Below are positions 6,824-63,347 of a stretch of 64,000 nt of DNA, piece after piece (position 1 is the stretch's first letter; the number at the start of each line of letters is the position of its first letter). The translations under genes were made by a program, and so were the position numbers. A model generated the notes under the pieces. The model was given only the letters and a program-made list of their open reading frames with translations. It was not told where the DNA came from and did no database searches. The stretch spans positions 6,734 through 70,733 of the forward strand of contig LBRD01000003.1 in NCBI GenBank assembly GCA_000991245.1, written 5' to 3'. Source of the DNA: Parcubacteria group bacterium GW2011_GWC1_36_108 (GTDB lineage: Bacteria > Patescibacteriota > Minisyncoccia > Moranbacterales > GWC2-37-73).

Positions 6824-7111
6824 CTAAGTCCATACGATTGAGTGACCTGGGTATATTTTTTGAATTTGTTTGATAAAATCCTCCTTTGAAATCGGAACGC
6901 AGAAGCGTTTGATTTTATCTATACCTCCAGAATAAAGAAGTGAAAATCCTGGAATATCAAACAGCGAAGCTTCGTTATGTTTCGTTGAAACATAAAGAAG
7001 AGGCGATCGTTTTGAGACCACAAAATCGTAGTCTTTTTGAAGTAGCGTTTTTTCTGTTGCTGTATCGGAAGCTTCTTTGATAATAATTGTTTTGCTCCTC
7101 CCGTCCTTCAT
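6824..7111 (-). CDS. hypothetical protein
   Basis: Start moved to the ATG preceded by AGGAGGAGGATT (strong SD). 95 aa. Confidence 0.5.
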   Translation of the reverse strand: MKDGRSKTIIIKEASDTATEKTLLQKDYDFVVSKRSPLLYVSTKHNEASLFDIPGFSLLYSGGIDKIKRFCVPISKEDFIKQIQKIYPGHSIVWT

Positions 7112-7121
7112 AATCCTCCTC

Positions 7122-7490
7122 CTATTTTGTGAGATTTGAAGATACAATCATACACACTGCGTTTACGTGCGTGGAAGATACATCAAGGGCAATTTCCTTT
7201 ACTCGCTTGTGTGTTCTGAGTACAAGACTACACGCTCTTTCCTGAACCTTTTTGTCAGAGAGAGCTTTTACGCGCAGAGCCTGCATCATAATTCGTTGAG
7301 CGTGGTCGTCGTCTATCTCTTTCAAGTCGTATTCCTTAAAAGAGGCGATATGTATACTTATGCCAAAGTTAAGTTCAGGATTATCATTCAAAAATTCACC
7401 AACAATTGCGGACACGGATTTAACCGCGGAATCCTTGTTGAAATTTTTGAGTTTTAGCTCCGCTGCTGCGTCAATAGTTGTTCTTTTCAT
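7122..7490 (-). CDS. hypothetical protein
   Basis: Start moved to the ATG preceded by TAGGGGGTAATACG (SD-like). 122 aa. Lies 10 nt upstream of 6824..7111, so probably forms an operon with it. Confidence 0.5.
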   Translation of the reverse strand: MKRTTIDAAAELKLKNFNKDSAVKSVSAIVGEFLNDNPELNFGISIHIASFKEYDLKEIDDDHAQRIMMQALRVKALSDKKVQERACSLVLRTHKRVKEIALDVSSTHVNAVCMIVSSNLTK

Positions 7491-7657
7491 CGTATTACCC
7501 CCTAAGTTTTTAAAGTGCATGGGCACTTTTTGGTATTTCAGCTATTATACACCTAAACGGGCAACGTGTCAATATGGGCGCCATTTTGCCCGCCTGCAAC
7601 GCTGTAGCACTGCGGGCAGGCCCTTGAGAAAGCGGAGAAAAGGTGGTAGGATGTAAT

Positions 7658-7788
7658 AGTTCATAAAGTTTTTAAAGTTCTTAAGGTTTATAAAGTAAAA
7701 TGCAAAAAGTTGTAAGGTTTTTAAGGTTTGTAAAGTTTATAATGTAAAATACAAAAAACTCCAAAGTTTATAAAGTTCATAAGGTAAA
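7658..7788 (+). repeat. 9-bp-period array, three sub-arrays each ending in GTAAAATRCAAAAA
   Basis: gttcataaa gtttttaaa gttcttaag gtttataaa ... read directly. Immediately upstream of four-helix-bundle gene 7794. Confidence 0.75.
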
Positions 7789-15550: not shown

Positions 15551-17344
15551 ATGAATAATCCAATAGATAAAGAGTCTTTGAAGTCTTTGGTTGGGAGCAG
15601 ATTTTTTGTTGGAGCAATCTTGATTGCGATTTTGGCAGTTGGTGTTTTTTTGCGCGCATATAACTTTTCTGACTGGCAACATTTTGAACTTGATCAATCT
15701 CGCGATGCAAAGGTTATAGATTTGGCGGTGGAAAACGGAGTGGGGGATCTTCCTCTTTTGGGACCAAAGGCAGCGGGGTCATTTTTGCGTCTCGGTCCAA
15801 TATTTTATTATTTCGGTTATGTGAGCGCAAAAGTATTTGGTAACACGCCTTCTGGGATTGCTGTCATTTCACTCATTTTTTCTTGTTTAACGCTGCCCCT
15901 GTTTTATTTGTTTGTCAGAAGATTTTTTTCAAAAAAAATAGGACTTATGCTTCTAGGAGTTTTTTCCGTTTCAATTTTTCTTGTTCTGTACTCACGTTTT
16001 TCATGGAATCCTAATAATTTGCCATTTTTCATTTTGGGTGCACTTTATGGTCTCCTTCGTGCAACGGATGAGAATGAAAAAAGAAAAGGCTGGTGGTTGA
16101 TTGTAGGAGTTGTTTCTTTGACTATTGCAACTCAACTTCACTTTGTGGCTTTTTTGGGCTTGCCGATGATTGCCGTCGCGTATCTTCTAATAAAAAGACC
16201 TTTAATAAACTGGAAATATTGGCTGGCTTCTATCGCATGCATTGTTTTTTTGTATATTCCTTCGATAATAAATGATTTCAAGACAGGTGGTTCAAATATT
16301 ATTGAATTTGAAAAAGTGTTCGCAAAAACATCCACCAAGGGCGAGCATACTCTTGTTGAAAAAATAATAAGAAACATCGACAAGAGTTCGGCTGGATATG
16401 TCTTGCTGATAAGTGGAAATTCACAGGCCGAATTGCCAAAGGTGAAGATTCCAAGAATACGACCAATTTTTACATGTGATGAGGATTGCAAAAAAGGTGT
16501 CCCAATGGGAATTTTTTCACTATTCTTTGCTATTATTGGAAGTGCACTTTTGGGTTGGAATATTTTCAAAACAAAAGAAACTTCGCGCAGAGATTTTTTG
16601 ATCATCGTGGCTATTTGGGTATTGGTTACGCTGGCACTTTTTACTCCGATTTCATATGATATGGCTCCAAGATTCTTTCTGCTGGTTGCTCCGATCCCAT
16701 TTGTTTATTTGGGGCTTATTTTGGATTTTTTTGAAAAAAGAAAAGCCAGTGTTCTTTCTTGGGTTTTCGTTTTGATTCTCTTGGCTTCAAATGGCTGGCT
16801 TGTTAAAGAAAGATTTAGCGAACTTGCAAATGCTCCCGTTAAAGAATTTGAGATATCTTCGGACAAAATTCTCAAAGAAAACGAACGAGTAACCCTTGAG
16901 CAACAGCTTCTGATTACCAAATATATTGAAAGTATTTATAATCAAAACAACTTTCCAGTTTATGTTAATAGTGAGGCATTTTATCGCAGATCATTTTTGT
17001 ATCATCTGGAACAACGTTTGATAGTTCGCGATGATTTTCGCAATACCAGAAGTGTTTATTCTGAGGGAAATTATTTTTTGGTGTATCCATCTTCTTCAAC
17101 TGTGGAAAAAATTTATGAAAATTATCAGGATAAATATGATATTGCTGAAATCAAGGAATTTGGCACGCTTAGAGTTGTGCGCTTGCTTCCAAAATTGCAA
17201 ATGATAACAGCGGTGCGTCAGGAATTTGCTCCAGCAAGAAAACCAATCAGCGCTCCTGGCGTGCCAGTGCGTTGTCGTTGGAATGAAATTTTTTCCCAAT
17301 GTAATAGTGACGGAACGGAGGCGGAGGATGAAAGTAGTTTATAA
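15551..17344 (+). CDS. GT-C family membrane glycosyltransferase (ArnT-like)
   Basis: FLRAYNFSDWQHFELDQSRD...LLGPKA...GPIFYY, paralogous to the N-terminus of 10433..13147. Confidence 0.7.
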   Translation: MNNPIDKESLKSLVGSRFFVGAILIAILAVGVFLRAYNFSDWQHFELDQSRDAKVIDLAVENGVGDLPLLGPKAAGSFLRLGPIFYYFGYVSAKVFGNTPSGIAVISLIFSCLTLPLFYLFVRRFFSKKIGLMLLGVFSVSIFLVLYSRFSWNPNNLPFFILGALYGLLRATDENEKRKGWWLIVGVVSLTIATQLHFVAFLGLPMIAVAYLLIKRPLINWKYWLASIACIVFLYIPSIINDFKTGGSNIIEFEKVFAKTSTKGEHTLVEKIIRNIDKSSAGYVLLISGNSQAELPKVKIPRIRPIFTCDEDCKKGVPMGIFSLFFAIIGSALLGWNIFKTKETSRRDFLIIVAIWVLVTLALFTPISYDMAPRFFLLVAPIPFVYLGLILDFFEKRKASVLSWVFVLILLASNGWLVKERFSELANAPVKEFEISSDKILKENERVTLEQQLLITKYIESIYNQNNFPVYVNSEAFYRRSFLYHLEQRLIVRDDFRNTRSVYSEGNYFLVYPSSSTVEKIYENYQDKYDIAEIKEFGTLRVVRLLPKLQMITAVRQEFAPARKPISAPGVPVRCRWNEIFSQCNSDGTEAEDESSL

Positions 17345-17392
17345 AGTTTGTAAAGTTATAAAGTTCATAAAGTTTATAAAGTTCATAAAGTT
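17337..17392 (+). repeat. 9-bp-period array (GTTTATAAA/GTTCATAAA x6)
   Basis: Direct reading. It generates the fake KFIKFIKFIK N-terminus of track ORF 17226. Confidence 0.75.
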
Positions 17393-17399
17393 AAAAAAT

Positions 17400-18926
17400 A
17401 TGAAAAAGACATTTCTTATCTTGTTTGCCATCATAATTCTGGGTGCTTTTTTGCGCTTTTATAAATTGGGAGAACTTTCTTTTGTGGCGGATGAATTTTT
17501 GGATATGAATTCTTCCTATGCTTATGCTCAAACTGGAACTTGGCAATCCTGGGATTTTAATCGTGGAGTTGTTAATGTGGAAAATGAATTTGCACCGCGC
17601 GATGAAAGAGCATGGCCATATAAGATTCAAGTTGCCAAACTGTTTGGTTTTTTTGCTCCGACTGAAGAGGTGGCAAGGAGTATTAGTGCGGTGTGGGGAA
17701 TCTTGAGTATTATCCTAATTTTTTTCGTGGCAAAATATTTTACTAGGAAAAATTCAATCGGACTTCTCAGTGCATTTTTGTTTGCAATAAGTGTCAGCGG
17801 AATCATTTTTGACAGACGTCTTCGAATGTATGCAATGTTCTTCCCATTTTTTCTGCTTTTCTCTTGGTTGACGTATAAATTTTTTGAGGAATCTTATGGA
17901 GGCAAGCTCAGGGTTTTTAAATATGTAAATGAAAAAATAGGTGTAAATTTGAAATATATCCTGCCAATGCTTCTGTCAGGATCGATGAGTCTGAAGATTC
18001 ATGATTTGACGGTCAGTATGGTTGCTATCTTTACTACATATGTCTTTATTATGACAACCAAGACTTTCTTGGAAAAAAAGACATTCATTTGGAATAAATA
18101 TTCTGTGACATTAAGCGTTGTCTTGGTCGCTGCTGCAGGAATTTTTACTTTTGCATCTGAAAAGATTGGAATGTATGCAGCTGGTATAAAATTTTTCAAC
18201 GACAATTTTAGTTATTTTTCAATAGTTACTTCGGACTATAGCCATCCATTGTTGGCACTTTTGTTTTTTGTTGCCGGTATTTATTATCTGGCGGTGCATA
18301 AAAAACTTTCCAAGGAGGGAATATGGCTGGCAGTTTCTTTTTTGGTTCCGCTTTTAATGGCAGTATTTTTGTGGAGGAGAAATGCGGGCGCCCAATATAT
18401 TTTCTTTGCTCAGTCTTTTGCTATTATCTTGATTGCATCTGGTGTTTACGGTGCAGCAAAATTTTTCAAAAATAATCTCGAGACTTTTTCTGCAAAAAAA
18501 GTATATTTCGTGACCATTGCCTTATCTCTGATGCTTTTGCCAAACTACGCATATTTTTTTCAGGAGAACAACGCTTACAGCCAGACTTCAGCAGCTGAAA
18601 ATCCGAATTATCGAAGCATCTTCACATATTTCAAGAAGAAAAAAATCGATGGCGATGTTCTGATAACAAGAAATTTTCGAAACTATTATTGGAGTGGACA
18701 AAATGTGAAAGTGATTGACTTTGGTGGGGAATTGGCTGAAGAAAAATTTTCATTAGCCCAACTTACAAATGTCGTGAATGAAAATAAGACAGGTTGGGTA
18801 ATTCTTTCCGACAATGATGACCGCTACATTTCAAATGAGGCTTCTGTTTATATGCAAGAAAATATGACCAAGATAAATGATATTGCAGTGCGAGGAAACG
18901 TGCTGGTTTACAGATGGGGGATGTAA
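17400..18926 (+). CDS. GT-C family membrane glycosyltransferase (GT39/GT83-like)
   Basis: Start moved to MKKTFLILFAIIILGAFLRFYKLGE. Polytopic. Confidence 0.7.
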   Translation: MKKTFLILFAIIILGAFLRFYKLGELSFVADEFLDMNSSYAYAQTGTWQSWDFNRGVVNVENEFAPRDERAWPYKIQVAKLFGFFAPTEEVARSISAVWGILSIILIFFVAKYFTRKNSIGLLSAFLFAISVSGIIFDRRLRMYAMFFPFFLLFSWLTYKFFEESYGGKLRVFKYVNEKIGVNLKYILPMLLSGSMSLKIHDLTVSMVAIFTTYVFIMTTKTFLEKKTFIWNKYSVTLSVVLVAAAGIFTFASEKIGMYAAGIKFFNDNFSYFSIVTSDYSHPLLALLFFVAGIYYLAVHKKLSKEGIWLAVSFLVPLLMAVFLWRRNAGAQYIFFAQSFAIILIASGVYGAAKFFKNNLETFSAKKVYFVTIALSLMLLPNYAYFFQENNAYSQTSAAENPNYRSIFTYFKKKKIDGDVLITRNFRNYYWSGQNVKVIDFGGELAEEKFSLAQLTNVVNENKTGWVILSDNDDRYISNEASVYMQENMTKINDIAVRGNVLVYRWGM

Positions 18927-18980
18927 AACAAACAACAATCAACTTACAACAAACAACAAGAATTCATACTATTGGATAAC

Positions 18981-19008: not shown

Positions 19009-19053
19009 GGAATGCATTTTTTGCTATATGCTATATGCTATATGTTTTATGAT

Positions 19054-20583
19054 CTATGCGCTTGGTTCGTTACCAGAAAGTTCTTCTTGAATCTCAGTTT
19101 TCTTTTTCTTGGAGATGATGCTTTTTAAATATTCAAAATCTGTCAGCGTGATTTCTTTCAGCAAGATAAGGATAAAAATATAAAGGGAGAGCAGTGCGAC
19201 AGACCAGATTAGGAAGATGAAAGTTCCTTGAGAGAAAAATAGGGAAGCGAAATACATAATAATTCCTGCAAAAATCATTTTGAGCAAGCTTTTAATTTTA
19301 ATCAAAGTTCCGAAATCTTTTTGAATGTAATACAAGATTGCGAGCATTACCACAAAAGAAGTGATTGATGTTGCAATGGCGCTGCCAGCAAGAGCATATT
19401 TTTTGATCAAAATCACATTGAGGACGGTGTTGAGAATGACACCGAAGATTGAAATCCACATTGGAATTTTTGTTTTGCCGGCGCCGTTAGCCACAAAGCT
19501 CATCACATAAAAAATAGTGAGAAATCCCACACCATATGCCAAGATCGACATTGGATATGCTGCATCAAGATACTCAGCGGAATAAAAAAGTTTGATGATT
19601 GGAGCAGAAAATTGTGCCATCAAAATTACAGCTGGAATCAAGAAGATTAACATTAGTCGCAGGGAATGTTGAATGATCTGGTTGGTTTTGGCGCTGTCGT
19701 TTTCAGAAGTGCTTTTTGAAACCACTGGCAAAAGCATTATCGTGAGCGCATAAAAAATGTAATATGGGATGCGTCCAACAGTTAGAGCAGCGTTATAGAT
19801 TCCAGTTAGATGATCATTGTGCAAGATGCCTTTTACGAGGTACAAATCAATGCTGATAAGAAGCTCGTAGGCCAAAAAGAATAATATAACCTGCCAAGCG
19901 TAGTTAAGCAGTTTTTTGGTCTCAAATTCACTCTGTAGGCTCAAATTTTGCACCTTGGCGGCCTTTTTAATTTCTTTGGTATATTTGAGCTGATCAAGAG
20001 AAAAGGCAATTATAAAGACGCTTAATGCGGCTAGGGCATATCCCACAATCGATCCTGGCACTCCAAAAGCGTATGCAAGCCCTACGATTGCCACTACCTT
20101 CAAGATAGAGCGCAGGGTTTTGAGGATTGATTGGACATTGAACTTATGCAGGGCTGTATAGAAGGAAAAATAGAAAGAGGCCGCGGCAAAAGTAGGGATT
20201 ATGAGTGTTGAAATGCGAAATAGTGGCGTAAGCGTCTCATCTCCTAATGCTCTACTTATAAGTGGGGCACAAAAAAAGAAAATGACAGTGATTGATCCAA
20301 TAAGAAGAGATTGCAAAATAAGTGCTTTTCTTTTGATAACCAGCACTAGGCGCGGGTTGGTTTCAAAAATCTCGCTGATATATTTTGCCATCGCAGTCGG
20401 AATGCCATTGCCGATCAAAATAATGATCATTGTAGTCATTGTCACAACCAAACCATAGCGACCATAATCTGCCGGTCCCAAAATGCGCCCAACAAAAGAA
20501 TGGATGATATATCCGGAAAGATTGAAGATTATTTCACTGGCAATAAGCCACATTGTTGATTTTGCGAGATTTTTTGAGGTCAT
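19054..20583 (-). CDS. polysaccharide flippase (Wzx / MOP superfamily)
   Basis: 509 aa, about 14 TM segments, typical flippase N-terminus. Confidence 0.8.
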   Translation of the reverse strand: MTSKNLAKSTMWLIASEIIFNLSGYIIHSFVGRILGPADYGRYGLVVTMTTMIIILIGNGIPTAMAKYISEIFETNPRLVLVIKRKALILQSLLIGSITVIFFFCAPLISRALGDETLTPLFRISTLIIPTFAAASFYFSFYTALHKFNVQSILKTLRSILKVVAIVGLAYAFGVPGSIVGYALAALSVFIIAFSLDQLKYTKEIKKAAKVQNLSLQSEFETKKLLNYAWQVILFFLAYELLISIDLYLVKGILHNDHLTGIYNAALTVGRIPYYIFYALTIMLLPVVSKSTSENDSAKTNQIIQHSLRLMLIFLIPAVILMAQFSAPIIKLFYSAEYLDAAYPMSILAYGVGFLTIFYVMSFVANGAGKTKIPMWISIFGVILNTVLNVILIKKYALAGSAIATSITSFVVMLAILYYIQKDFGTLIKIKSLLKMIFAGIIMYFASLFFSQGTFIFLIWSVALLSLYIFILILLKEITLTDFEYLKSIISKKKKTEIQEELSGNEPSA

Positions 20584-20717: not shown

Positions 20718-21305
20718 TTATGCTATCTGGGATTTTATAATGCTAAATATTTCTTCTTTATCTTTATTGCCGTCTACTATTTTTAAATTCCAGACAGTTG
20801 CTGCTTGGTCGAGAAGCGCTTTTTTCTTGTTTAAATATTCCAATCCTTGATCTGGCACGCGGTCACGTTGCATTATTTTTTCTGGAGAGGTGTTGAGATA
20901 AAAAGCAAAATCGGGAGTAGGAATTAGGTGGTAGGAATTAGGTGGTAGGGGGGAATTTTGAAGGTATAAAATATTAATAATGTTGTCGTAGAAATAGCGG
21001 TCGGAAAGAATGTAGTCGTAGCCGGAGTTACGTAGCTTGTTACGTAGCAAAACAAAACGCAGCAGGTCAATGTGCAGCGCAACTTTGCGCAGTTGGATTT
21101 GCAGCCAACCAGCCTTTGTTACACTTTTTGTTTCCTGTTGACCGTTGATTGTTGATTGTTGATTGTTAAGAACATTGGCGATTGAAAACTGGACAGCGTG
21201 AAAATAAAAAACTTTCTTGCCTTGTGATTCAAGATAATTTTTCAATAAATTTATTTGGGTCGATTTGCCGCTGCCGTCTAAACCTGAGATTGAAATTATT
21301 TTCAC
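20718..21305 (-). CDS. thymidylate-kinase-like nucleotide kinase carrying two in-frame tandem-repeat insertions
   Basis: GTG start. P-loop GLDGSGKST and an LSDRYFYD (DRY) motif. Repeats at 20917-20953 and 21144-21167. Confidence 0.6.
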   Translation of the reverse strand: MKIISISGLDGSGKSTQINLLKNYLESQGKKVFYFHAVQFSIANVLNNQQSTINGQQETKSVTKAGWLQIQLRKVALHIDLLRFVLLRNKLRNSGYDYILSDRYFYDNIINILYLQNSPLPPNSYHLIPTPDFAFYLNTSPEKIMQRDRVPDQGLEYLNKKKALLDQAATVWNLKIVDGNKDKEEIFSIIKSQIA

Positions 21306-21306
21306 A

Positions 21307-21389
21307 AAAGTTTATAAGGTTCATAAAGTTCTTAAGGTTCATAAAGTGTTTTTGTATTTACTTTATAAACTTTATAACTTTATAACTTT
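21307..21389. repeat. palindromic 9-bp-period array with loop GTTTTTGTATTT
   Basis: Forward words 21307-21346, inverted words 21360-21389. Confidence 0.75.
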
Positions 21390-21396
21390 TTACTAT

Positions 21397-22896
21397 TTAG
21401 TACATTATTACTGCCACTGGTTGCATTTTGGCGACAATATGTGCGACGCCGTTGGCTTCAACTCCTTTGATCACTTCATCAATATTTTTATATTTGGCGC
21501 TGTCTTGGTTGATGACGATTGAGGACTGGGCATTGTAAAGTCTAACACCTTTTTCTTCCATTTTGGCAAAAAGTTCTTCCTTGTTGGAAATGCTTTTTTC
21601 GTTGTTGTTTTTTCCTTTGCCGGTTCCGTGTGGTGCAGAATAAAAACTTTGATCGTTTCTGTCAGTGCCGACACAGATGTATGCATCAGTGCTCATTGAA
21701 GAGGGGATAAATGCTGGTTCTCCTGTTTCTTTATAAATCGGATGGTGCGACATTTTTGCAGGACCAAAGGCGCGCGAAGTGTTGGAACGATGAATCATCA
21801 CATCTTTTCCGAAATGCTCCTCCTTGGTGATGGAAATGTGCGGCAGGTCATAAATTAAATCCATTTCAGGGTCGCGGCCGAGAATTTTTTTGATAGCCTG
21901 CGAAATGTTGTGCGTGATGACAGCTCGGTTGGCTGTTCCAAAATTGCTTGCAGCTGCTCGGGCGTTCATATACATTTCGCCATCTTCTCCGTTGGCATCA
22001 TATTTCAAAAGCGAATCATCTTTGGTCATATGCAGCTTTATTTTTTTCTGCATCTTTTTGTAAACATCTTTTTTGCGAGAACTGAATGTGAGGCGACCAA
22101 GCGCAACCATAAGAGCTTGCGAAAGATGTTCAGCTTTTTTGGCTGTGTGAGTATACATTGTGTATTGGCCAAGAATGCCACTTCCGGTGTGAATCATAAA
22201 AAGATATTGGCCCTTTTTAATTCCAAATTTTTCTGCCATCTCAGCATCAACAATGTCTCCAACTTTCATTAAGTCAAGAAAGTGATTGCCAGCAGCGCCA
22301 AGAACTCCCAATCGATATTTCGCAAAGTTTAAATATAGTTTCGGGATGACATCAAAAATATCTTGTCGGGTCATTTCTTTTTCAAAAAAACTTCCTCCAC
22401 TCTGGGTGTTTTCCAATTCATTTTTGGTGGTAATTCCAAGATGTTTGATGATGGCCTTTGTGCCTTGACGGCAGATGTCCACCACGACATTGAAGGGAAC
22501 TTTTGTGCCGACAAATTTCTTGGTGGGAACAACCGAAACTAATTCTTGAAATAGCTTATGAATTTCTTCCGGCGAAATGTTTTCATCGCTAAGATTTGTT
22601 TTGACAAGTCGCATTCCGCAATTAGGATCAGAGTCATTAACTTGCGGGAGAATATATTTTTCACTGGCGATTGTTGTGCCAGCAGCATTTTTTCTTCCTG
22701 GCTTGGAACAAACATCTGGCATAGCGACGGTGCTTCTAAAAAAAGTGTCTTTATTTGAAGCGATGTCTTCCACTTGAGAGAATGTTTCTTCTTCTGGCAA
22801 AAGATTTTGATTCATAAAAAAAAGTGCCGGCACAGACATTTTGTCGGTTTTAAATTCTTTTATGTTCTCAGAAAGTGATTTCGTTTCGTATTTCAT
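21397..22896 (-). CDS. rtcB: RtcB-family RNA ligase (divergent)
   Basis: Ordered RtcB-like blocks: MPDV, PNCGMR, GNHFLD, HTGSG, FGTANR, HRSNTSRAFGP, SAPHGTGKG. Confidence 0.7.
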   Translation of the reverse strand: MKYETKSLSENIKEFKTDKMSVPALFFMNQNLLPEEETFSQVEDIASNKDTFFRSTVAMPDVCSKPGRKNAAGTTIASEKYILPQVNDSDPNCGMRLVKTNLSDENISPEEIHKLFQELVSVVPTKKFVGTKVPFNVVVDICRQGTKAIIKHLGITTKNELENTQSGGSFFEKEMTRQDIFDVIPKLYLNFAKYRLGVLGAAGNHFLDLMKVGDIVDAEMAEKFGIKKGQYLFMIHTGSGILGQYTMYTHTAKKAEHLSQALMVALGRLTFSSRKKDVYKKMQKKIKLHMTKDDSLLKYDANGEDGEMYMNARAAASNFGTANRAVITHNISQAIKKILGRDPEMDLIYDLPHISITKEEHFGKDVMIHRSNTSRAFGPAKMSHHPIYKETGEPAFIPSSMSTDAYICVGTDRNDQSFYSAPHGTGKGKNNNEKSISNKEELFAKMEEKGVRLYNAQSSIVINQDSAKYKNIDEVIKGVEANGVAHIVAKMQPVAVIMY

Positions 22897-24710: not shown

Positions 24711-24724
24711 GTATGTGTAGTTGT

Positions 24725-24841
24725 TGTCATCCTGAGCGAAATTGAGACTGATAAGTCGAAATGTAGTCGAAGGATCTGAGCCCAGATTTCTCGACTGCGC
24801 TAATCTTCCCCATGGTTAGATTAGCTTCGCTCGAAATGACA
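24725..24841. mobile_element. MITE-like hairpin element, family A-related copy 3 (117 bp)
   Basis: TGTCATCCTGAGCGAA...TTCGCTCGAAATGACA, with internal hairpin GCTAATCT-N11-AGATTAGC. Confidence 0.65.
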
Positions 24842-24850
24842 TAGTGATGT

Positions 24851-29256: not shown

Positions 29257-29342
29257 AAAAAGTTTTTAAGGTTCTTAAGGTTTTTAAAGTATAAGCAGGT
29301 GTATGCCTTATGAACTTTATAACTTTATGAACTTTATAACTT
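29257..29342. repeat. palindromic 9-bp-period array
   Basis: Forward words 29257-29290, inverted words 29307-29342. Confidence 0.75.
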
Positions 29343-32461: not shown

Positions 32462-34165
32462 ATGCCAATCATTAAACAAATTTTGGATCAAATTTTTAAA
32501 AATCCAACAAAGCTGTATCTCATTTTGGCCAATGTTGTTTTGGTTTCTTTTGCTATTTGGTTTTCAAATGTTGGACTTTTGCCGTTTAAAAACTTTGGAG
32601 ACTTTGCAGTTTTTGCAGTGTTGACTTTGATTTTGGGATTGTATCGTCCTGGTTGGACATTTCTTTTTTTTGTGGGAGCATTGGCCTTGAAGAATATTAA
32701 TCTTGTGCCAAAGGAGATTGGTTTGTCACTCAGACCATATCAATTTTTTGGGTTCATCACGATAATCGCGCTCTTGGTTCAGACTTTGTCAAAACGTCTT
32801 GCATTTTCATTGCCAAAATTTGCTTGGTATGACGCAATGCCTGTTGTTTTTGCTGTGGCTGGTTTTTTGAGCGCCTTGGGTGCAACAAACAAAGGGATGA
32901 GTTTCAAACAATCAATAATCGCTCTTACATTTGTCGCTTTGTATTTTTTAACCAGGATTTATGTGCAATCTTTTGATGATGCGAAACGCGTTCTGCCATT
33001 TTTTCTGAGCAGTGGATTGGTAGTGATGATATATTCTATTTGGCAAAATATCAGATTTTTAACTGGTGGAAATTCTTTTGAGGTAATGCCCGGCAGACCC
33101 AATGGAACTTTTACCGAGGCTGACTGGCTAGGAATATTTGTCACTTTTATTTTAGCTGTTTTATTAACAATATTGTATGCGCTTAATAGAAATTATATAA
33201 AAGATAGTGCTGGTCAAATTTCCAATTTCCAATTTCCAATTTCCAATAAATTCTTAAATTTACAAATTTTTAAAAAAGTAAGTGCTTATGTTTTTATTAC
33301 ACTTACGTTAATAACACTCATTCTGACTGTTTCTCGTAGTGCTTGGGTGGGGGCGGTGTTTGTGGCGGTTGTTTTTCTTAAATTTGTTCTCCTTGGAAAT
33401 TATGCGGAGCTTGGAGAAGGAGATCGAAGTAAATGGAAAAGATTGCTAAACATTTTGAAAATGCAAAAGTGGCAATGGAAAAAAGCCGGAACTCAGCTGC
33501 TGTTTGTTTTGCTTGCACTTGCTGTTGCACTTGCAATTGCAATGCCTCTGACACGTTTTCAATTGGCAAGCAGAGCAGCGAGCACAGCAGGATTTCAGAA
33601 AATAACGGTTGCGTGTCATAGTAGCGCTGACAATATTGTACCGCAAAAAATTCTCAGTGTTGATGAATTGGGAGGCTATGGTTGCAGACACATTAATCTG
33701 GAAGATATTGAAAAAGAAAAAGCTCTTGGCAATATGGTTATTGAAGTTGACAGGCCTGATCCAAATGTGAACATTCGCGCTGAAATTTATCAAAAATCTT
33801 GGCAGCAAATAAAATCACATCCTGTTTTTGGAATTGGGTGGGGAAGCATCTCGCAAGTTTTAGGCACAGACGAGCGTGGTGCGGGACTTAATGCGAGCAA
33901 TATCTTTTTGGAAGTCTGGCTGGGAAGTGGACTGCTTGGAATATTGTCGTTTGTGGTATTGCTTGGATATATTCTTGTATCATCAATCGGTGTGTTTTTG
34001 GATAATGGTAATAAGAATAAAAATGGTGCAGCACTTCTTTTTGTGATGGCCGGCTGGGCGGCTGTTGTTTTTCCAAATCTTTTTAATTCCGGAATATTCT
34101 TAGGATTCGTCTGGGTGTATTTAGGAGTAGCGGTGAGCTTATTACGAAATCATAAAAACATATAA
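32462..34165 (+). CDS. O-antigen ligase/polymerase-like membrane protein (Wzy_C-type)
   Basis: Polytopic, with LTVSRSAWVGAVFVAV and a large loop. In-frame AATTTCC repeat at 33215-33271. Confidence 0.7.
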   Translation: MPIIKQILDQIFKNPTKLYLILANVVLVSFAIWFSNVGLLPFKNFGDFAVFAVLTLILGLYRPGWTFLFFVGALALKNINLVPKEIGLSLRPYQFFGFITIIALLVQTLSKRLAFSLPKFAWYDAMPVVFAVAGFLSALGATNKGMSFKQSIIALTFVALYFLTRIYVQSFDDAKRVLPFFLSSGLVVMIYSIWQNIRFLTGGNSFEVMPGRPNGTFTEADWLGIFVTFILAVLLTILYALNRNYIKDSAGQISNFQFPISNKFLNLQIFKKVSAYVFITLTLITLILTVSRSAWVGAVFVAVVFLKFVLLGNYAELGEGDRSKWKRLLNILKMQKWQWKKAGTQLLFVLLALAVALAIAMPLTRFQLASRAASTAGFQKITVACHSSADNIVPQKILSVDELGGYGCRHINLEDIEKEKALGNMVIEVDRPDPNVNIRAEIYQKSWQQIKSHPVFGIGWGSISQVLGTDERGAGLNASNIFLEVWLGSGLLGILSFVVLLGYILVSSIGVFLDNGNKNKNGAALLFVMAGWAAVVFPNLFNSGIFLGFVWVYLGVAVSLLRNHKNI

Positions 34166-34226
34166 TATAACATAAAACATGTAACAATAAATACAAGAAT
34201 GTTACATGCTATATGCTACATGCTTC

Positions 34227-35372
34227 ATGGATATTGGAATCGACATTAGATTAATAGGGAAGAAGAGGACTGGCGATGAGGTGGTTGTTTTTAATTTGGT
34301 CAAGAACTTCGTACGGATAAATACGGATCACAAATTCAGACTTTTTACGGATGTTACAGATAAGGTGGTGCTTGAGAAAATCAGTGAGCAATTGGGAATT
34401 ATTGAAAGAGAAAATTTTGAAATTATTTCACTTCCAACCAAAAATAAATTCGTTTGGAATTTTTGGACGCTGCCAAAATATCTCAAAAAAAATCCGGTTG
34501 ATGTATATCACACGCAATACATCACACCGTTTTTTGTTTCAAGAAAAGTTAAGATTGTGACGATTGTGCACGACATTTCCTTTAATTTTTTTCCGCAGTT
34601 TATAAAATTTTCAGATTTATTTTTTTTGAAAACATTGATTCCGCTGAGTTTGAAACGCGCAGATAAAATTGTTGGTGTTTCGCAATTTACCAAAGATGAA
34701 ATTATTAAATATTATAAAGTTAATCCTGAAAAAGTTGAGTGGATTCACAATTCGATTAGTGATGAATTTGCAAAAACGATAGAGGCGCAAAATCTTGCGT
34801 CTGTGCGCGAAAAATATCACTTGCCTGAAAAATTCATTTTATATTTGGGCACTTTGCAGCCGCGAAAAAACGTTTCGCACCTAGTTTCCGCCTTTGCTCG
34901 TATTAAAGATAGTCTTGATGGCACAAAGCTTGTTATTTGTGGCAACATTGAAGGACACAATGCTGACAGTCAAATCAAGAAAAACGTGGTTAAGTTCAAT
35001 CTTGAGGAAGATGTGTTGTTTCCTGGTTTTATTGATGAACAAGACAAGGTGGCAGTTTTTGCTTTGGCGCATTCTTTTGTTTTTCCTTCATTGTATGAAG
35101 GATTTGGTATTCCTGTGCTTGAGGCGATGAGTCAAGGTGTGCCAGTGCTTTGCTCTGATATTCCAAGTTTGAAAGAAATTGCCGAGAATGGCGCATTATT
35201 CTTTGATTTGCAAGACCTTGATGATTTTTCAAAAAAGTTGTATGATATATCTATGAATTTGGACCTTCGAAGTGAGCTAATTCGATTGGGAAAACAGCGA
35301 GTTAGCTTTTTTTCTTGGGAAAAATCAGCACATAGGATGCTTGCAATTTATGAAAATATGCGGCATAATTAA
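34227..35372 (+). CDS. GT4 glycosyltransferase
   Basis: Start moved to MDIGIDIRLIGKKRTG. FPSLYEGFGIPVLEAMSQGVPVLCS. Confidence 0.8.
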   Translation: MDIGIDIRLIGKKRTGDEVVVFNLVKNFVRINTDHKFRLFTDVTDKVVLEKISEQLGIIERENFEIISLPTKNKFVWNFWTLPKYLKKNPVDVYHTQYITPFFVSRKVKIVTIVHDISFNFFPQFIKFSDLFFLKTLIPLSLKRADKIVGVSQFTKDEIIKYYKVNPEKVEWIHNSISDEFAKTIEAQNLASVREKYHLPEKFILYLGTLQPRKNVSHLVSAFARIKDSLDGTKLVICGNIEGHNADSQIKKNVVKFNLEEDVLFPGFIDEQDKVAVFALAHSFVFPSLYEGFGIPVLEAMSQGVPVLCSDIPSLKEIAENGALFFDLQDLDDFSKKLYDISMNLDLRSELIRLGKQRVSFFSWEKSAHRMLAIYENMRHN

Positions 35373-55705: not shown

Positions 55706-56926
55706 CTATTGGAAGTCTGCGAGGACGTTGCCGGAAATTTTTCGCAGGCGTTTTACAACTTCTTTTATTTTTTCAATGACAGTGTCTAGTTCTTTTTTGG
55801 TGGTATGTTTTCCTAAGGTTAGTCTGAGACTGCCGTGAGCTTGCTCGTGCTTAAGTCCCAAAGAAAGCAAAACGTGCGATGGATCAAGTGCTCCAGATGA
55901 GCAAGCAGAGCCCGTAGAAGCCGCGATGCCGTCTAAATCAAGTGAGAGTATTAATCCCTCTCCTTCAACATCATCAAAACGAAAATTGGCATTATTTGGA
56001 GATCTTTTTTCTAATGAGCCATTAAGATATGATTTAGGGATTTCTTTTAGTACACGTTTGATAAGATAATCTCGCAGCTTGGTTATTTCAATAATATTTT
56101 TTTGCGCGGCTGGAGTTTTGATCATATTAATTGCTTCTCCAAGACCAACTATTGCTGGAACGTTGTGCGTTCCTGCGCGCAGCCTGAATTCTTGATCGCC
56201 GCCATCTTGCACACGTTTAATCAAAGTGCCTTTTCTAACATACAAAAGTCCAATCCCCTTTGGACCATATATTTTGTGCGCCGACATTGAAAGCAAATCA
56301 ACTCCAAGTTCATTCACATCACAATCAAAATAGTTTATAGCTTGAGTGGCGTCAGTATGAAATGAGATGCGCGGCAGCTTGTTTTCTGCTCGCTCAACAT
56401 TTATTTTTTTTAGCAACTTCCCTATTTCAGCAATCGGCTGAACTGTGCCAATTTCATTATTAACGTACATCACGGAAATTAAAATCGTGTTAGGTTTGAT
56501 GGCTGCTTTGATATCTTTAACTGCGATTAAGCCTTCTTTATTGGGCGCAACGAATGTCACATCAGCAAGTCCATCTTTTTCGGCAAATTTGCAAGCATCT
56601 AAAACGCAATGATGTTCAAATTTGCTGGTAATGATATGTGGTTTTTCTCCTGCTTTTCTGGCAATGGAATAATATGAACGCAAACCTCCCTTTACAACAA
56701 GATTATTACTCTCCGTGGCTCCAGAGGTAAAAATTATTTCAGAAGCATTAGCGCGGAAAAAAAGTGCAGCTTTAGCTCTGGCATCATCAACTGCTTCTAA
56801 GGCTTCTTGACCAAAACTATGCACACTCATTGCATTACCAAAATTCTGCGAAAAATATGGCAACATTTTTTCAAACACTTTAGCATCAACTGGAGTTGTG
56901 GCTGCGTAATCTAAATATATTTTCAT
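55706..56926 (-). CDS. cysteine desulfurase (NifS/IscS class)
   Basis: YLDYAATTP, SAHKIYGPKGIG (PLP Lys), SSGSACSS (active Cys). Confidence 0.9.
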   Translation of the reverse strand: MKIYLDYAATTPVDAKVFEKMLPYFSQNFGNAMSVHSFGQEALEAVDDARAKAALFFRANASEIIFTSGATESNNLVVKGGLRSYYSIARKAGEKPHIITSKFEHHCVLDACKFAEKDGLADVTFVAPNKEGLIAVKDIKAAIKPNTILISVMYVNNEIGTVQPIAEIGKLLKKINVERAENKLPRISFHTDATQAINYFDCDVNELGVDLLSMSAHKIYGPKGIGLLYVRKGTLIKRVQDGGDQEFRLRAGTHNVPAIVGLGEAINMIKTPAAQKNIIEITKLRDYLIKRVLKEIPKSYLNGSLEKRSPNNANFRFDDVEGEGLILSLDLDGIAASTGSACSSGALDPSHVLLSLGLKHEQAHGSLRLTLGKHTTKKELDTVIEKIKEVVKRLRKISGNVLADFQ

Positions 56927-56929
56927 AAT

Positions 56930-56962
56930 AGGTTTTAGGTATTAGGTTTTAGTTTTTAGGTT
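56930..56962 (+). repeat. AGGTTTTAGGT word array
   Basis: Direct reading. An inverted partner lies at 57819-57856. Confidence 0.6.
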
Positions 56963-57804: not shown

Positions 57805-57818
57805 AAATTAAGTTATCA

Positions 57819-57856
57819 TATCACCTAAAACCTAGCACCTAATCACCTAAAACCTA
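57819..57856 (-). repeat. inverted ACCTAAAAC word array
   Basis: Reverse complement of the words at 56930-56962. Confidence 0.6.
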
Positions 57857-57861
57857 TTCTT

Positions 57862-58992
57862 ATGCGTTTATCATATTCAGCACTCGATAGTTTTCAAAAT
57901 TGTAGTTTGAAATATAAATTTCAAAATATCGACAAAATTAAAGAACCCAAAAGCAAAGAAGCTGTTTTTGGAACGCTTGTTCATGGCACGATGAAATTTA
58001 TTCATAATCCTTCTTTACTACCCCCGAAATTGGAAGATGCTTTGGATTATTTTTCCAAAAATTGGAACAGTGATGTTTTTGAAGATGAACTTGAAGAACG
58101 CAGCGCTTTTTCAATGGGTGTGGCGATGATTCAACAATATTATAAAAATAATATTGTTTCTGAATATAATATTGTTGATTTGGAAAGCAGGTTTGCTATT
58201 GAAATAATAGATCCTAAAAATGGAGCTAACCATACTATTTCCGGTATTATTGACCGTATTGATAAAACAGAAGATGGCTATGAAATTATTGATTATAAGA
58301 CAACCAAAAAAATGCCTTCGCAAGACAAGGTGGATAATGATTTGCAGCTATCAGTTTACTTGAACGCATTTTTGGCTCGCTACCCAAAAGAAGCTGCAAA
58401 TCTGGATAAGATTACCGTTAGCCTTTATTATCTCAAGCACGGCGTAAAATTGAGCTCACAGCGTTCACTTGAACAACTTAAAAATGCAAACCAACTTTTC
58501 CTAGATGTTATTGCGGAAATTGAAAAAGGAATTTTCGTGCCTAATGTTACTCCACTTTGCGATTGGTGTGGTTTTCAAAAGATTTGTCCGATGTGGAAGC
58601 ATAAATTTAAGGAGGAGAGAAAAATTGATAGTGAAGAAATTAATGCTGCCATTGGTGATTATATCAATCTTAAATCAGCTATTGCTTCTACCAAAACTCA
58701 GTTTGCTGAGCTGCAAGAAAAAATTACCAAATATATGGAGCAAGAAGGTGTTGAAAGAGTTTTTTCTGATGAAGGAATCATTGCTCAGACACTGCGCAAG
58801 ACCTATAAATATGATGAAAAACAACTTCGTGAAATTCTGGAGCCTCTGGATAAATGGGAGTCAGTCCTCAAGGTTGATGGCATCGCACTGAAAAATATTA
58901 TGAGTGTGCTGCCGGTCAGCACGCGGCAGGACGTTGAACGCGCCCGCGTTTTAGATAAAGAAAGCAAGAGTTTGACTATCAAGAAGAAATGA
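57862..58992 (+). CDS. PD-(D/E)XK nuclease (RecB/Cas4/AddB-nuclease-like, with Cys cluster)
   Basis: IIDRID...YEIIDYKT nuclease core. C...CDWCGFQKIC Fe-S-type Cys motif. Confidence 0.75.
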   Translation: MRLSYSALDSFQNCSLKYKFQNIDKIKEPKSKEAVFGTLVHGTMKFIHNPSLLPPKLEDALDYFSKNWNSDVFEDELEERSAFSMGVAMIQQYYKNNIVSEYNIVDLESRFAIEIIDPKNGANHTISGIIDRIDKTEDGYEIIDYKTTKKMPSQDKVDNDLQLSVYLNAFLARYPKEAANLDKITVSLYYLKHGVKLSSQRSLEQLKNANQLFLDVIAEIEKGIFVPNVTPLCDWCGFQKICPMWKHKFKEERKIDSEEINAAIGDYINLKSAIASTKTQFAELQEKITKYMEQEGVERVFSDEGIIAQTLRKTYKYDEKQLREILEPLDKWESVLKVDGIALKNIMSVLPVSTRQDVERARVLDKESKSLTIKKK

Positions 58993-63251: not shown

Positions 63252-63347
63252 AAGGTATAGTTGTAAAGTTCATAAAGTTTGTAAGGTTCATAAAGTATTT
63301 TTGTAATTCCACTTTATAAACTTTTGACTTTATAACTTTATAAACTT
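63246..63347. repeat. palindromic 9-bp-period array with loop ATTTTTGTAATTCC
   Basis: Forward words 63246-63296, inverted words 63311-63347. Confidence 0.75.

What the first reader, a model, noticed from the sequence alone, without database searches (positions are those of the whole stretch)
20917..21167. Thymidylate-kinase-like gene carries two in-frame tandem-repeat insertions
A 14-mer GTAGGAATTAGGTG repeated 2.6 times (20917-20953) encodes ...LPPNSYHLIPTP... A 7-mer GTTGATT repeated 3.3 times (21144-21167) encodes ...NNQQSTINGQQ... Both lie between conserved kinase blocks (the P-loop and the DRY motif) and keep the frame. AGGTGGTAGGA also occurs intergenically at about 7644. The complement of the 7-mer array resembles the intergenic tract at 18927-18960. 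Intergenic-type repeats therefore appear to colonise coding sequence, as Rickettsia palindromic elements do.
Basis: partly seen in the sequence, partly recalled or inferred. Interest (0 to 1): 0.5.

Follow-up and report, generated by a model that had tools for sequence, protein, structure and literature searches.

The report
Repeat DNA rewrites two kinase loops
Two short tandem DNA repeats inside a thymidylate-kinase-like gene of a Moranbacteria (CPR) genome are real and belong to the 7-base repeat families of the genome's intergenic DNA; they sit in two surface loops that related genomes have repeatedly refilled with repeat DNA, including small palindromes and a mobile-element-like sequence.

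Summary
The gene at 20718-21305 (-) is a divergent dTMP-kinase-family protein, identical to one from Candidatus Moranbacteria GW2011_GWC2_37_73. Both repeats exist and exceed chance. They are heptamer-phased arrays without secondary structure: about five CAACNNN units (aa 47-57) and five NNCCTAN units, seen as a 14-mer x2.4 (aa 119-130). Arrays with the same cores occur intergenically at 18926-18957, 56927-56962 and 57817-57858. A close relative carries 20 identical bases of the 14-mer array in its rtcB-tmk spacer.

Corrections: the 14-mer array lies after the DRY motif, not before it. The 11-mer at 7641 is chance-level. Loop 2 is not a net insertion (19 aa, the family median). Loop 1 is about 6-7 aa longer than the shortest relatives.

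In 64 orthologues, tandem arrays with different units, 17-40-nt hairpins and a roughly 100-nt MITE-like element pile up in exactly these two loops: 41 of 64 genes carry at least one, 19 carry one in both. Heptamer-array density matches intergenic DNA and is about 27-fold that of other coding sequence.

"Intergenic repeats colonise coding sequence" is therefore supported. The Rickettsia-element analogy fits the family, not the window's own non-palindromic arrays. I found no evidence for phase variation. This is a new variant of a known kind, of moderate interest.

The parts
20718..21305 (-). Divergent thymidylate-kinase-family gene (195 aa, GTG start) lying between rtcB (21397-22896) and a Polysacc_synt/MurJ-like flippase gene (19054-20583)
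   Evidence: ORF. Pfam PF02223 at 41 bits, above the cutoff of 27. TIGR00041 at 36.7 bits, below its cutoff of 83. 100% identical to Ca. Moranbacteria GW2011_GWC2_37_73 'Thymidylate kinase'. AF2 model pLDDT 87; the best Foldseek PDB hits are dTMP kinases with TM about 0.7. Synteny is conserved.
21136..21167 (-). Loop-1 array. The sense strand reads CAACAAT CAACAAT CAACAAT CAACGGT CAACAGG (CAACNNN heptamers; the perfect part is 21144-21167). It encodes NNQQSTINGQQ (aa 47-57), a peptide repeat with a 7-aa period (NNQQSTI/NGQQETK).
   Evidence: TRF period 7 x4.6, score 50. CAAC phased at 7 nt. AF2 pLDDT below 50 for aa 50-59, a disordered loop between helices 42-50 and 67-93. Unit-level turnover against P0007 (AAAB versus AABB') with no length change.
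20911..20949 (-). Loop-2 array. The sense strand reads cCCCTAc cACCTAa ttCCTAc cACCTAa ttCCTAc, which is the 14-mer CACCTAATTCCTAC x2.4 or five NNCCTAN heptamers. It encodes PLPPNSYHLIPT (aa 119-130). The two 14-mer copies are read in different frames, and a third copy would create an in-frame TAA.
   Evidence: TRF period 14, 100% identity, score 66. CCTA phased at 7 nt. Rare codons dictated by the repeat. Coil between helix 105-116 and strand 133-138, pLDDT about 77-85. No RNA structure.
21258..21284 (-). P-loop codons (aa 8-16, GLDGSGKST)
   Evidence: Translation; invariant in 34 orthologues.
20994..21002 (-). DRY motif codons (aa 102-104). The motif lies between the two arrays, not after both.
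   Evidence: Translation; invariant S101-D102-R103.
20847..20867 (-). LID-like RDRVPDQ (aa 147-153)
   Evidence: Invariant R147, R149, P151 and Q153. Aligns with RRVRRPDR of Thermus Tmk.
18926..18957 (+). Intergenic relative of the loop-1 array: CAACAAT CAACTTA CAACAAA CAACAAG, located after the stop of gene 17226-18926 and before a terminator-like hairpin
   Evidence: 8 matches against 0.28 expected; apart from one isolated one-mismatch hit at 42325, all at this site and tmk loop 1.
56927..56962 (-). Intergenic relative of the loop-2 array: AACCTAA AAACTAA AACCTAA TACCTAA AACCTAT, ending directly at the ATG of the nifS-like gene 55706-56926
57817..57858 (+). Intergenic relative of the loop-2 array: CACCTAA AACCTAG CACCTAAT CACCTAA AACCTAT, ending 3 nt before the ATG of gene 57862-58992
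24715..24850 (-). Intergenic MITE-like palindromic element (GTCATTTCGAGCG...CGCTCAGGATGAC). Members of the same family sit in frame in tmk loop 1 or loop 2 of other Moranbacteria, where they encode the peptide CHSERSE...GMT.
   Evidence: alignment A3. The ssDNA fold is -26 kcal/mol, z -6.4. No Rfam match.
7641..7651 (+).
   Evidence: 64 of 300 resamples contain such a match.

Best explanation
The two repeats are heptamer-phased microsatellites of the kind that fills the intergenic DNA of this Moranbacteria genome. They occupy the only two unconstrained surface loops of a divergent dTMP-kinase-family protein.

Mechanism, inferred: replication slippage, unequal exchange or conversion between 7-nt units creates and turns over such arrays everywhere. 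In coding DNA they survive only where the protein tolerates any peptide and where the array keeps the frame and avoids stop codons. The translated peptides (NNQQSTINGQQ, PLPPNSYHLIPT) are by-products of the DNA repeat, not selected motifs.

Shown: these two loops are a recurrent sink for repeat DNA across the family. Different lineages carry different heptamer arrays, short hairpin palindromes or a MITE-like element at exactly these positions, and loop alleles are reshuffled by homologous recombination. For the window itself, loop 1 is a small net gain of about 6-7 aa (three heptamers make 21 nt). Loop 2 is a like-for-like replacement of an ancestral 19-aa loop of the type LSGKNKKLFAEKFIPKPDF.
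For: - The repeats are real and non-random.
- Heptamer arrays are a genome trait: 8 period-7 arrays in the window against 0.05 in shuffles.
- The same 4-nt cores at 7-nt spacing occur in tmk and in intergenic arrays only. L083's intergenic spacer contains 20 nt identical to the window's loop-2 array.
- Rare codons (CTA 6.9%, TCC 11%, TAC 19%) show that the DNA drives the peptide.
- AF2 places loop 1 in a disordered segment (pLDDT below 50) and loop 2 in coil.
- In 64 distinct orthologue genes, TRF arrays map almost only to aa 45-60 and 116-133, with different units in different lineages. Hairpins and MITE-like inserts fall in the same loops. 41 of 64 genes are affected and 19 in both loops.
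- Period-7/14 arrays number 19 in 39 kb of tmk, 4 in 224 kb of other coding sequence and 26 in 37 kb of non-coding sequence. Hairpin density is 1.02 per kb in tmk, 0.16 in other coding and 0.96 in non-coding sequence.
- Unit-level turnover without length change is seen between the window and P0007. Alleles are mosaic.
- Loop lengths equal the family medians.
Against: - It is unexplained why this particular gene is about 7-27 times richer in such repeats than roughly 220 kb of neighbouring coding sequence. Tolerance alone may not suffice.
- The CCTA cores, including synonymous positions, are conserved across relatives down to 60% aa identity (L084) while the 3 spacer bases vary. All 8 differences between the window and L081 fall in spacer positions. 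This could mean nucleotide-level function rather than neutrality, although conversion between units would also preserve cores.
- Outside the window and L083, loop units were not found in the short flanks of the other loci.
- The slippage mechanism is inferred, not observed. No copy-number variants were seen.
Confidence: 0.6

Rival explanations
1. Contingency locus. The 7-nt and 14-nt units are not multiples of 3, so slippage by one unit would switch the kinase-like gene off and on, as in neuO. The gene sits among cell-envelope glycan genes.
For: - The unit lengths are 7 and 14, and perfect runs exist in the window and in orthologues (x4.6-4.9 perfect in L091, L096 and L113).
- The neighbours are glycosyltransferase and flippase genes.
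- The heptanucleotide coding repeat of neuO is a precedent (PMC13001214).
Against: - Copy numbers are low (3-9 units) and the arrays are mostly imperfect.
- All near-identical variants are 195 or 194 aa (P0001 on 18 contigs, P0121 on 9, P0122, P0123).
- None of 86 Moranbacteria loci shows a frameshift at an array; the one split hit is a run of N.
- Close relatives differ by substitutions or unit conversion, not by unit number.
- A further 14-mer copy would give an in-frame TAA.
- The protein looks like a housekeeping dTMP kinase.
Confidence: 0.06
2. The arrays have a nucleic-acid-level function. The phased 4-nt cores (CCUA, CAAC) would act as binding sites for an RNA- or ssDNA-binding factor, or as G-poor unstructured spacers that aid translation. 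Such elements would lie embedded in tmk as well as in 5' leaders.
For: - Cores are conserved and spacers variable in both the coding and the intergenic arrays.
- Core conservation extends to synonymous sites across 60-88% identical orthologues.
- The two intergenic CCTA arrays end at start codons and are on the sense strand.
- The arrays are almost free of G and have no structure.
Against: - Other orthologues carry unrelated units or hairpins at the same loops, so no particular motif is required in tmk.
- L083's intergenic array is on the opposite strand.
- Core conservation is also expected from conversion between units.
- There is no known factor and no Rfam family.
Confidence: 0.12
3. Diversifying selection on the loop peptides, for example to evade a phage-encoded or host-encoded inhibitor or partner of the kinase. 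Repeat DNA would merely be the raw material.
For: - The two loops are the only hypervariable parts of an otherwise well conserved protein.
- Loop alleles are exchanged as cassettes between nearly identical backgrounds: P0123 and P0006 differ only around loop 2.
- The loop-2 segment is shared between the window and the distant L084 but not with closer relatives.
Against: - The loop contents range from Q/N-rich to K/E-rich to Cys-containing MITE translations, with no common property.
- The protein is cytoplasmic.
- The pattern is what neutral turnover in an unconstrained loop predicts.
- No partner is known.
Confidence: 0.1
4. A true Rickettsia-palindromic-element-like event in the window itself: a mobile palindromic element inserted in frame.
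For: Orthologues do carry in-frame hairpins and a MITE-like element in these loops, and the window has an intergenic copy of that element. RPE precedent: PMC10969869.
Against: - The window's arrays have no inverted repeats and no fold.
- They have no terminal repeats or target duplications.
- The units are 7 and 14 nt and tandem.
- Loop 2 shows no length gain.
Confidence: 0.03
5. Chance low-complexity sequence in an AT-rich genome.
For: The genome is AT-rich and gives many weak TRF hits.
Against: Shuffles almost never reach these scores. The cores recur at specific sites, and the same loops are repeat-rich in orthologues.
Confidence: 0.01

Closest known systems
Rickettsia palindromic elements (RPEs) and other MITEs that fuse in frame with host ORFs
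   Same: Repeat DNA that is otherwise intergenic ends up translated inside conserved housekeeping genes, at positions the fold tolerates (PMC10969869). In orthologues of this gene the same two loops hold hairpins and a roughly 100-nt element with terminal inverted repeats, always in frame.
   Different: The window's own repeats are tandem 7- and 14-nt arrays with no palindrome, no terminal repeats and, for loop 2, no net insertion. RPEs are about 150 bp and scattered over many genes. Here several unrelated repeat classes converge on two loops of one gene.
neuO heptanucleotide (AAGACTC)n coding repeat of E. coli K1 (phase variation)
   Same: It is a 7-nt unit inside an ORF, read in all three frames, so that 3 units make 7 aa. 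The gene is full length only when the count keeps the frame (PMC13001214).
   Different: neuO has 3-53 perfect copies and most genomes are out of frame. Here there are 3-5 copies, mostly imperfect, with no length variants or frameshifted alleles in the available assemblies.
Borg tandem repeats that create intrinsically disordered regions (aaTRs)
   Same: Lineage-specific, fast-evolving nucleotide tandem repeats occur both between genes and inside ORFs. They give disordered segments and arise independently in homologues (PMC9879509).
   Different: All Borg ORF repeats have unit lengths divisible by three and are perfect. Here the units are 7 or 14 nt, short and partly decayed, and they sit in a cytoplasmic kinase of a CPR bacterium.
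Cyanobacterial STRR heptanucleotide repeats (from my own recollection of Mazel et al. 1990; not checked here)
   Same: They are tandem heptamers that are abundant in intergenic DNA of one bacterial lineage, and their origin is unexplained.
   Different: The lineage and units differ, and STRRs are described as intergenic. Membership was not tested.
Canonical bacterial dTMP kinase (Tmk, TIGR00041 / PF02223)
   Same: It shares the P-loop GxDGxGKST, the DRY motif, the Arg-rich LID and the fold.
   Different: The window protein scores below the TIGR00041 equivalog cutoff. The TREPGG-type segment is replaced by FYFHAVQF, and loop 2 replaces a helical segment of canonical Tmk.

Membership tests
Thymidylate kinase family (PF02223) | Profile match above the Pfam gathering score | tested here: met
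   41 bits against a cutoff of 27.
Thymidylate kinase family (PF02223) | NCBIfam equivalog TIGR00041 above its cutoff (orthologous dTMP kinase) | tested here: not met
   36.7 bits against a cutoff of 83.25. The protein is a divergent subfamily.
Thymidylate kinase family (PF02223) | P-loop, DRY motif, LID arginines and the Tmk fold | tested here: met
   Invariant D10-T16, D102-R103, R147 and R149. The Foldseek top 50 hits are all dTMP kinases with TM about 0.7.
Thymidylate kinase family (PF02223) | dTMP phosphorylation activity | not testable with these tools
   This needs an enzyme assay.
Rickettsia-palindromic-element-like / MITE in-frame insertion | The element is palindromic, with inverted repeats and a stable hairpin | tested here: not met
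   The window arrays fold at 0 and -0.4 kcal/mol, no better than shuffles. The feature is met by the inserts in orthologues and by the window's intergenic copy.
Rickettsia-palindromic-element-like / MITE in-frame insertion | Net insertion relative to orthologues lacking the element | tested here: inconclusive
   Loop 1 is 19 aa against a minimum of 13. Loop 2 is 19 aa, equal to the family median, so there is no gain.
Rickettsia-palindromic-element-like / MITE in-frame insertion | Multi-copy family that is also present in intergenic DNA | tested here: met
   Core-phased arrays of the same type occur at 18926, 56927 and 57817, and L083's spacer shares a 20-mer. These are array families, not a discrete element.
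Rickettsia-palindromic-element-like / MITE in-frame insertion | In frame, at a structurally permissive surface site | tested here: met
   The ORF is intact. The AF2 model shows loops, with pLDDT below 50 for aa 50-59 and coil for aa 117-132.
Simple-sequence contingency locus (phase variation) | Tandem unit not divisible by 3 inside the ORF | tested here: met
   The units are 7 and 14 nt.
Simple-sequence contingency locus (phase variation) | Copy-number polymorphism, including out-of-frame alleles | tested here: not met
   No length variants among the cluster members or contigs and no frameshifts in 86 loci. This rests on assemblies only; reads were not available.
Borg-type aaTR | ORF repeats with unit length divisible by three that give perfect amino-acid repeats | tested here: not met
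   The units are 7 and 14 nt, and only loop 1 gives an imperfect 7-aa repeat x2. Criterion taken from PMC9879509.

The most novel reading that the evidence does not exclude
The two loops of the Moranbacteria Tmk-like kinase are not passive sinks but an evolved diversification site. Under this reading, heptamer arrays with conserved 4-nt cores (CCTA, CAAC) are made or maintained by a dedicated, sequence-specific process in these CPR genomes, or are bound by a dedicated factor. Loop cassettes built from them, and from small palindromes, would be exchanged between strains under selection, for example to escape a phage or host factor that targets the kinase. This would be a new way of generating protein variation from non-triplet repeats in minimal genomes.
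Probability: 0.07. Interest if true: 0.8.

Novelty: new variant of a known kind. Interest (0 to 1): 0.5.

Why it matters
The case shows, in a CPR bacterium, the phenomenon first seen with Rickettsia palindromic elements: selfish or slippage-born repeat DNA being translated inside a conserved housekeeping enzyme.

Two features are unusual. The repeats are 7-nt units read in all three frames. And at least three unrelated repeat classes converge on the same two loops across a whole phylum-level lineage.

This gives a natural experiment on how much arbitrary sequence an enzyme loop tolerates. It also gives a marker for strain typing and recombination in Moranbacteria, and a concrete entry point to the unexplained abundance of phased heptamer and nonamer arrays in these small genomes.

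For annotation, it warns that peptides such as CHSERSE..., RRRTST and LPPNSYHLIP in CPR proteins are translated repeats.

Tried and rejected
- **Rfam and tRNA scans.** Rfam at gathering thresholds and ARAGORN on the whole window found nothing. An Rfam E-value scan of the MITE-like element also found nothing.
- **Species-representative genomes.** The genome-contig scan returned no close relatives (best 57% identity). Close orthologue DNA therefore came from exact-protein look-ups and the metagenome scan.
- **Frameshifted (phase-off) alleles.** The only split tblastn hit, in L016, is caused by a masked run of N.
- **Copy-number variants.** None were found among the members of the 90% clusters.
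- **The 11-mer at 7641 as an intergenic copy.** Rejected as chance-level.
- **Loop units in other loci.** Searching each orthologue's 1.5-3 kb flanks for its own loop unit gave essentially nothing: one weak hit in L094. The hairpin TAGACGTCSGACGTCTA was found only inside tmk in the DNA I hold. The flanks are too short to decide whether it is multi-copy.
- **Literature.** Searches for heptanucleotide or palindromic repeats in CPR or Parcubacteria coding sequences found no prior description.
- **Not pursued.** A diversity-generating retroelement target was considered only from the sequence, which shows no template repeat or adenine-specific pattern. Programmed frameshifting was not pursued because the ORF is continuous.
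Full report
**What is at the coordinates.** The finding lies in a minus-strand ORF, 20718-21305, encoding 195 aa with a GTG start. The protein matches Pfam Thymidylate_kin above threshold (41 bits against 27). It falls below the NCBIfam dTMP-kinase equivalog cutoff (36.7 against 83.25). Its best sequence matches among solved structures are thymidylate kinases. It is 100% identical to a protein annotated as thymidylate kinase in Candidatus Moranbacteria bacterium GW2011_GWC2_37_73, so the window comes from a CPR genome. An AlphaFold2 model built on 34 orthologues has mean pLDDT 87, and all top Foldseek PDB hits are dTMP kinases with TM about 0.7. The P-loop (aa 8-16), S-D-R of the DRY motif (aa 101-103) and the LID arginines (R147, R149) are invariant in the family. 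The gene order glycosyltransferase, rtcB, tmk-like, Polysacc_synt/MurJ-like flippase is conserved in relatives.

**Check of the observation.** TRF reports GTAGGAATTAGGTG x2.4 at 100% identity (20917-20949, score 66). It also reports a period-7 array x4.6 at 88% (21136-21167, score 50), whose perfect part GTTGATT x3.4 is 21144-21167. In 100 locally shuffled windows, none gave a period-7 array scoring 50 or more, and one gave any array scoring 66 or more.

Three details need correction:
- The perfect 14-mer run is 2.4 copies.
- The 14-mer array lies after the DRY motif (aa 102-104, codons at 20994-21002), not between the P-loop and DRY.
- The 11-mer AGGTGGTAGGA at 7641-7651 exists, but 21% of resampled windows contain some 11-mer of the repeat, so it is not evidence.

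**Anatomy of the arrays.** On the sense strand, both arrays are phased heptamers with a conserved 4-nt core and 3 variable bases.
- Loop 1 reads CAACAAT CAACAAT CAACAAT CAACGGT CAACAGG.
- Loop 2 reads cCCCTAc cACCTAa ttCCTAc cACCTAa ttCCTAc, which TRF sees as a 14-mer.

Seven is not a multiple of three, so units are read in all three frames. Three loop-1 units (21 nt) give a 7-aa peptide period (NNQQSTI/NGQQETK). The two 14-mer copies of loop 2 are read in different frames (LPPNS versus YHLIP). A third 14-mer copy would read ...ACC ACC TAA, and the array stops just before that point; this follows from the sequence. Neither array has any secondary structure (0 and -0.4 kcal/mol, no better than shuffles).

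The codons in loop 2 are those the repeat dictates, not those the genome prefers. CTA is 6.9% of Leu codons, TCC 11% of Ser, TAC 19% of Tyr and CCT 25% of Pro. The DNA repeat therefore determines the peptide, not the reverse.

**Relation to intergenic repeats.** Period-7 arrays are a property of this genome: the window has 8 with TRF score 40 or more, against 0.05 in shuffles.
- CCTA cores at 7-nt spacing occur at exactly three places: tmk loop 2, 56927-56962 (-) and 57817-57858 (+). That is 9 matches against 0.05 expected. The two intergenic arrays lie on the sense strand directly upstream of start codons.
- CAAC cores at 7-nt spacing occur in tmk loop 1 and at 18926-18957 (+), with 8 matches against 0.28 expected; one of the eight is an isolated one-mismatch hit at 42325.
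- In a relative whose Tmk is 87% identical (L083), the rtcB-tmk spacer contains TTAGGTGGTAGGAATTAGGT. These 20 nt are identical to the window's loop-2 array, on the other strand.

The claim that the coding repeats are of the intergenic type is therefore supported, although not by the 7641 match.

**Are they insertions?** In the alignment of 34 and then 64 orthologues, both arrays fall in the only two hypervariable segments of the protein.
- Loop 1 (window aa 44-62) ranges from 13 to 44 aa, with a median of 18. The window has 19.
- Loop 2 (aa 115-133) ranges from 16 to 55 aa, with a median of 19. The window has 19.
- Against Thermus thermophilus Tmk, the phmmer alignment gives the window about 7 extra residues in loop 1 and 5 fewer in loop 2. 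Loop alignments at about 20% identity are imprecise.

Loop 1 is thus a modest net gain, compatible with three heptamers. Loop 2 replaces a common 19-aa loop, LSGKNKKLFAEKFIPKPDF, at equal length.

In the model, aa 50-59 have pLDDT below 50 and lie between two helices. Residues 117-132 are coil with pLDDT about 77-85.

**The main result: the same loops in orthologues.** I collected DNA for 64 distinct Moranbacteria orthologues. TRF arrays map almost exclusively to window aa 45-60 (up to 15 genes) and aa 116-133 (up to 19 genes). The units differ between lineages.
- Loop 2 units: CCTACCACCTAATT and its decayed form CCTAAAA; AACTTTC (perfect x4.6); AAGCCAA; ATTGAAA/GAAAATT (up to x9); ATACAAG (perfect x4.9); ATTCAAA (perfect x4.6); and 25-mers.
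- Loop 1 units: AACAATC, ACAACTCACAACAA, CAACAATCAACAGT, AAGTCAA and AGAGAATCAAGAAT, among others.

The same loops also contain in-frame palindromes:
- TGTAGACGTCGGACGTCTACA, which encodes RRRTST, occurs in loop 1 of six loci and in loop 2 of several others.
- Several other hairpins of 17-40 nt are present.
- A G5/C5 hairpin element encoding SPLVPLCERGK occurs in either loop.

A roughly 100-nt element with terminal inverted repeats (GTCATTCCGAGCG...CGGTCGGGATGAC, peptide CHSERSE...GMT) sits in loop 2 of four loci and in both loops of L008. The window itself has an intergenic member of that element family at 24715-24850. Its ssDNA fold is -26 kcal/mol with z -6.4, and alignment A3 shows the relationship.

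Overall, 41 of 64 orthologues carry an array or hairpin in at least one loop, and 19 carry one in both.

**Densities.**

| Feature | tmk genes | Other coding sequence in the same loci | Non-coding sequence |
|---|---|---|---|
| Period-7/14 arrays | 19 in 39 kb | 4 in 224 kb | 26 in 37 kb |
| Hairpins (stem of at least 8 bp) | 1.02 per kb | 0.16 per kb | 0.96 per kb |

The two loops therefore behave like intergenic DNA.

**Microevolution.**
- The window and P0007 have four loop-1 units each, but in the patterns AAAB and AABB'. This is unit turnover without a length change.
- In the CCTA clade (window, L081, L086, L089, L084), all five cores are kept while the spacer bases vary. All 8 differences between the window and L081 lie in spacer positions.
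- L084 is only 60% identical overall yet differs at 2 of 10 codons in the array, against 6-10 per 10 codons elsewhere.
- Alleles are mosaics. L082/P0002 equals the L091 type for codons 1-81 and is identical to the window for codons 82-195. P0123 and P0006 differ only around loop 2. P0123 occurs on a 52-kb contig, so this is not just an assembly chimera.
- No length variants were found among the near-identical sequences (P0001 on 18 contigs, P0121 on 9, P0122). No frameshifted allele was found in 86 loci.

**Explanation.** The best-supported reading has three parts.
- Moranbacteria genomes generate phased heptamer arrays, and also nonamer arrays, small hairpins and a MITE-like element, mainly between genes.
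- The two loops of this kinase tolerate almost any peptide. Repeat DNA that arises or lands there survives if it keeps the frame and avoids stop codons.
- The window shows the heptamer-array version of this process.

What is shown: the repeats are real, they are related to intergenic arrays, they encode loops, the peptide follows from the DNA, the same loops are hit recurrently and independently in orthologues, and alleles recombine. What is inferred: slippage or conversion as the generating process, and neutrality of the peptides.

Two things remain unexplained. The first is why this gene is so much richer in repeats than its neighbours. The second is why the cores are conserved even at synonymous sites. 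Conversion between units would produce that pattern, but so would a nucleic-acid-level function.

Phase variation, a neuO-like switch (PMC13001214), is not supported by the assemblies. It can only be excluded with reads.

**Comparison with what is known.** Rickettsia palindromic elements and other MITEs that fuse in frame with host genes are the closest precedent (PMC10969869). The analogy holds for the gene family, which has hairpins and a MITE-like element in the same loops. It does not hold for the window's arrays, which are non-palindromic tandem repeats.

Borg tandem repeats also create disordered segments and arise independently in homologues, but all Borg ORF repeats have unit lengths divisible by three (PMC9879509).

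Heptanucleotide arrays that are abundant between genes recall the cyanobacterial STRR sequences. That comparison rests on my own recollection and was not checked.

Full-text searches found no description of such in-frame repeats in CPR genomes.

**Verdict.** The window's loop 2 is not a net insertion, and the arrays are not palindromic elements. The novelty is a new variant of a known kind: non-triplet heptamer arrays, and several repeat classes converging on two loops of one housekeeping enzyme across a CPR lineage. Interest is moderate (0.5).

Noticed in passing
window 3216, 7656-7786, 17343-17392, 21307-21373, 29259-29335, 49894, 63265-63348: A family of 9-nt tandem arrays (AAAGTTYATAARGTT and variants) occurs at nine intergenic sites, with 21 matches against 0.28 expected. 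They often form inverted pairs that fold into hairpins. For example, the rtcB-tmk spacer 21300-21400 (-) folds at -18.9 kcal/mol, z -3.8. Function unknown; a terminator or regulatory role is possible.
   Followed up: partly
window 24715-24850 (-): An intergenic MITE-like element with terminal inverted repeats GTCATTTCGAGCG...CGCTCAGGATGAC. It has a strong ssDNA fold (z -6.4) and no Rfam family. Relatives of it are translated in frame inside tmk loops of other Moranbacteria as CHSERSE...GMT.
   Followed up: partly
window 33217-33247 (+): A perfect (AATTTCC) x4.4 heptamer array lies inside another gene, an O-antigen-ligase-like membrane protein at 32462-34165, and encodes GQISNFQFPISNK. It is the only other coding period-7 array in the window.
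   Followed up: partly
window 19022-19059 and 34199-34229: The same heptamer unit (ATGCTAT/ATGCTAC) forms arrays at two unrelated sites. One lies just past the 3' end of the flippase gene. The other overlaps the annotated start of gene 34206-35372, whose true start may be the ATG at 34227.
   Followed up: no
window 56927-56962 (-) and 57817-57858 (+): G-poor CCTA-phased heptamer arrays end directly at the start codons of a nifS-like gene and a nuclease-like gene, both finishing ...CCTAAAACCTATT before the ATG. No Shine-Dalgarno-like sequence is visible there.
   Followed up: partly
L084, L097, L105, L002, L007, L009, L113 (tmk loop 1); P0018, P0020, P0079, P0083: A subset of orthologues has a conserved Cys-rich insert in loop 1 (for example KYCLICRLTGKC, C-x2-C-x6-C). 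It is not repeat-derived and might be a small metal-binding or redox knuckle.
   Followed up: no
L081 2895-2995; L083 2900-2950; window 21306-21396: The rtcB-tmk spacer holds a different repeat class in each close relative: a MITE-like element in L081, a TAGG heptamer array in L083 and 9-mer hairpin arrays in the window. The neighbourhood as a whole is therefore repeat-prone.
   Followed up: partly
window 6824-7526 (-): Two small overlapping minus-strand ORFs (107 and 134 aa) lie upstream of the 7641 site and look like a toxin-antitoxin-type pair. Not examined further.
   Followed up: no
L108 767-808: The hairpin GTCGAGGTGAGACCTCGAC, found in tmk loop 1 of L108, also occurs as an inverted double copy inside what my naive ORF call treats as another coding region of the same locus. 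This suggests that these hairpins are multi-copy and can enter other genes.
   Followed up: no
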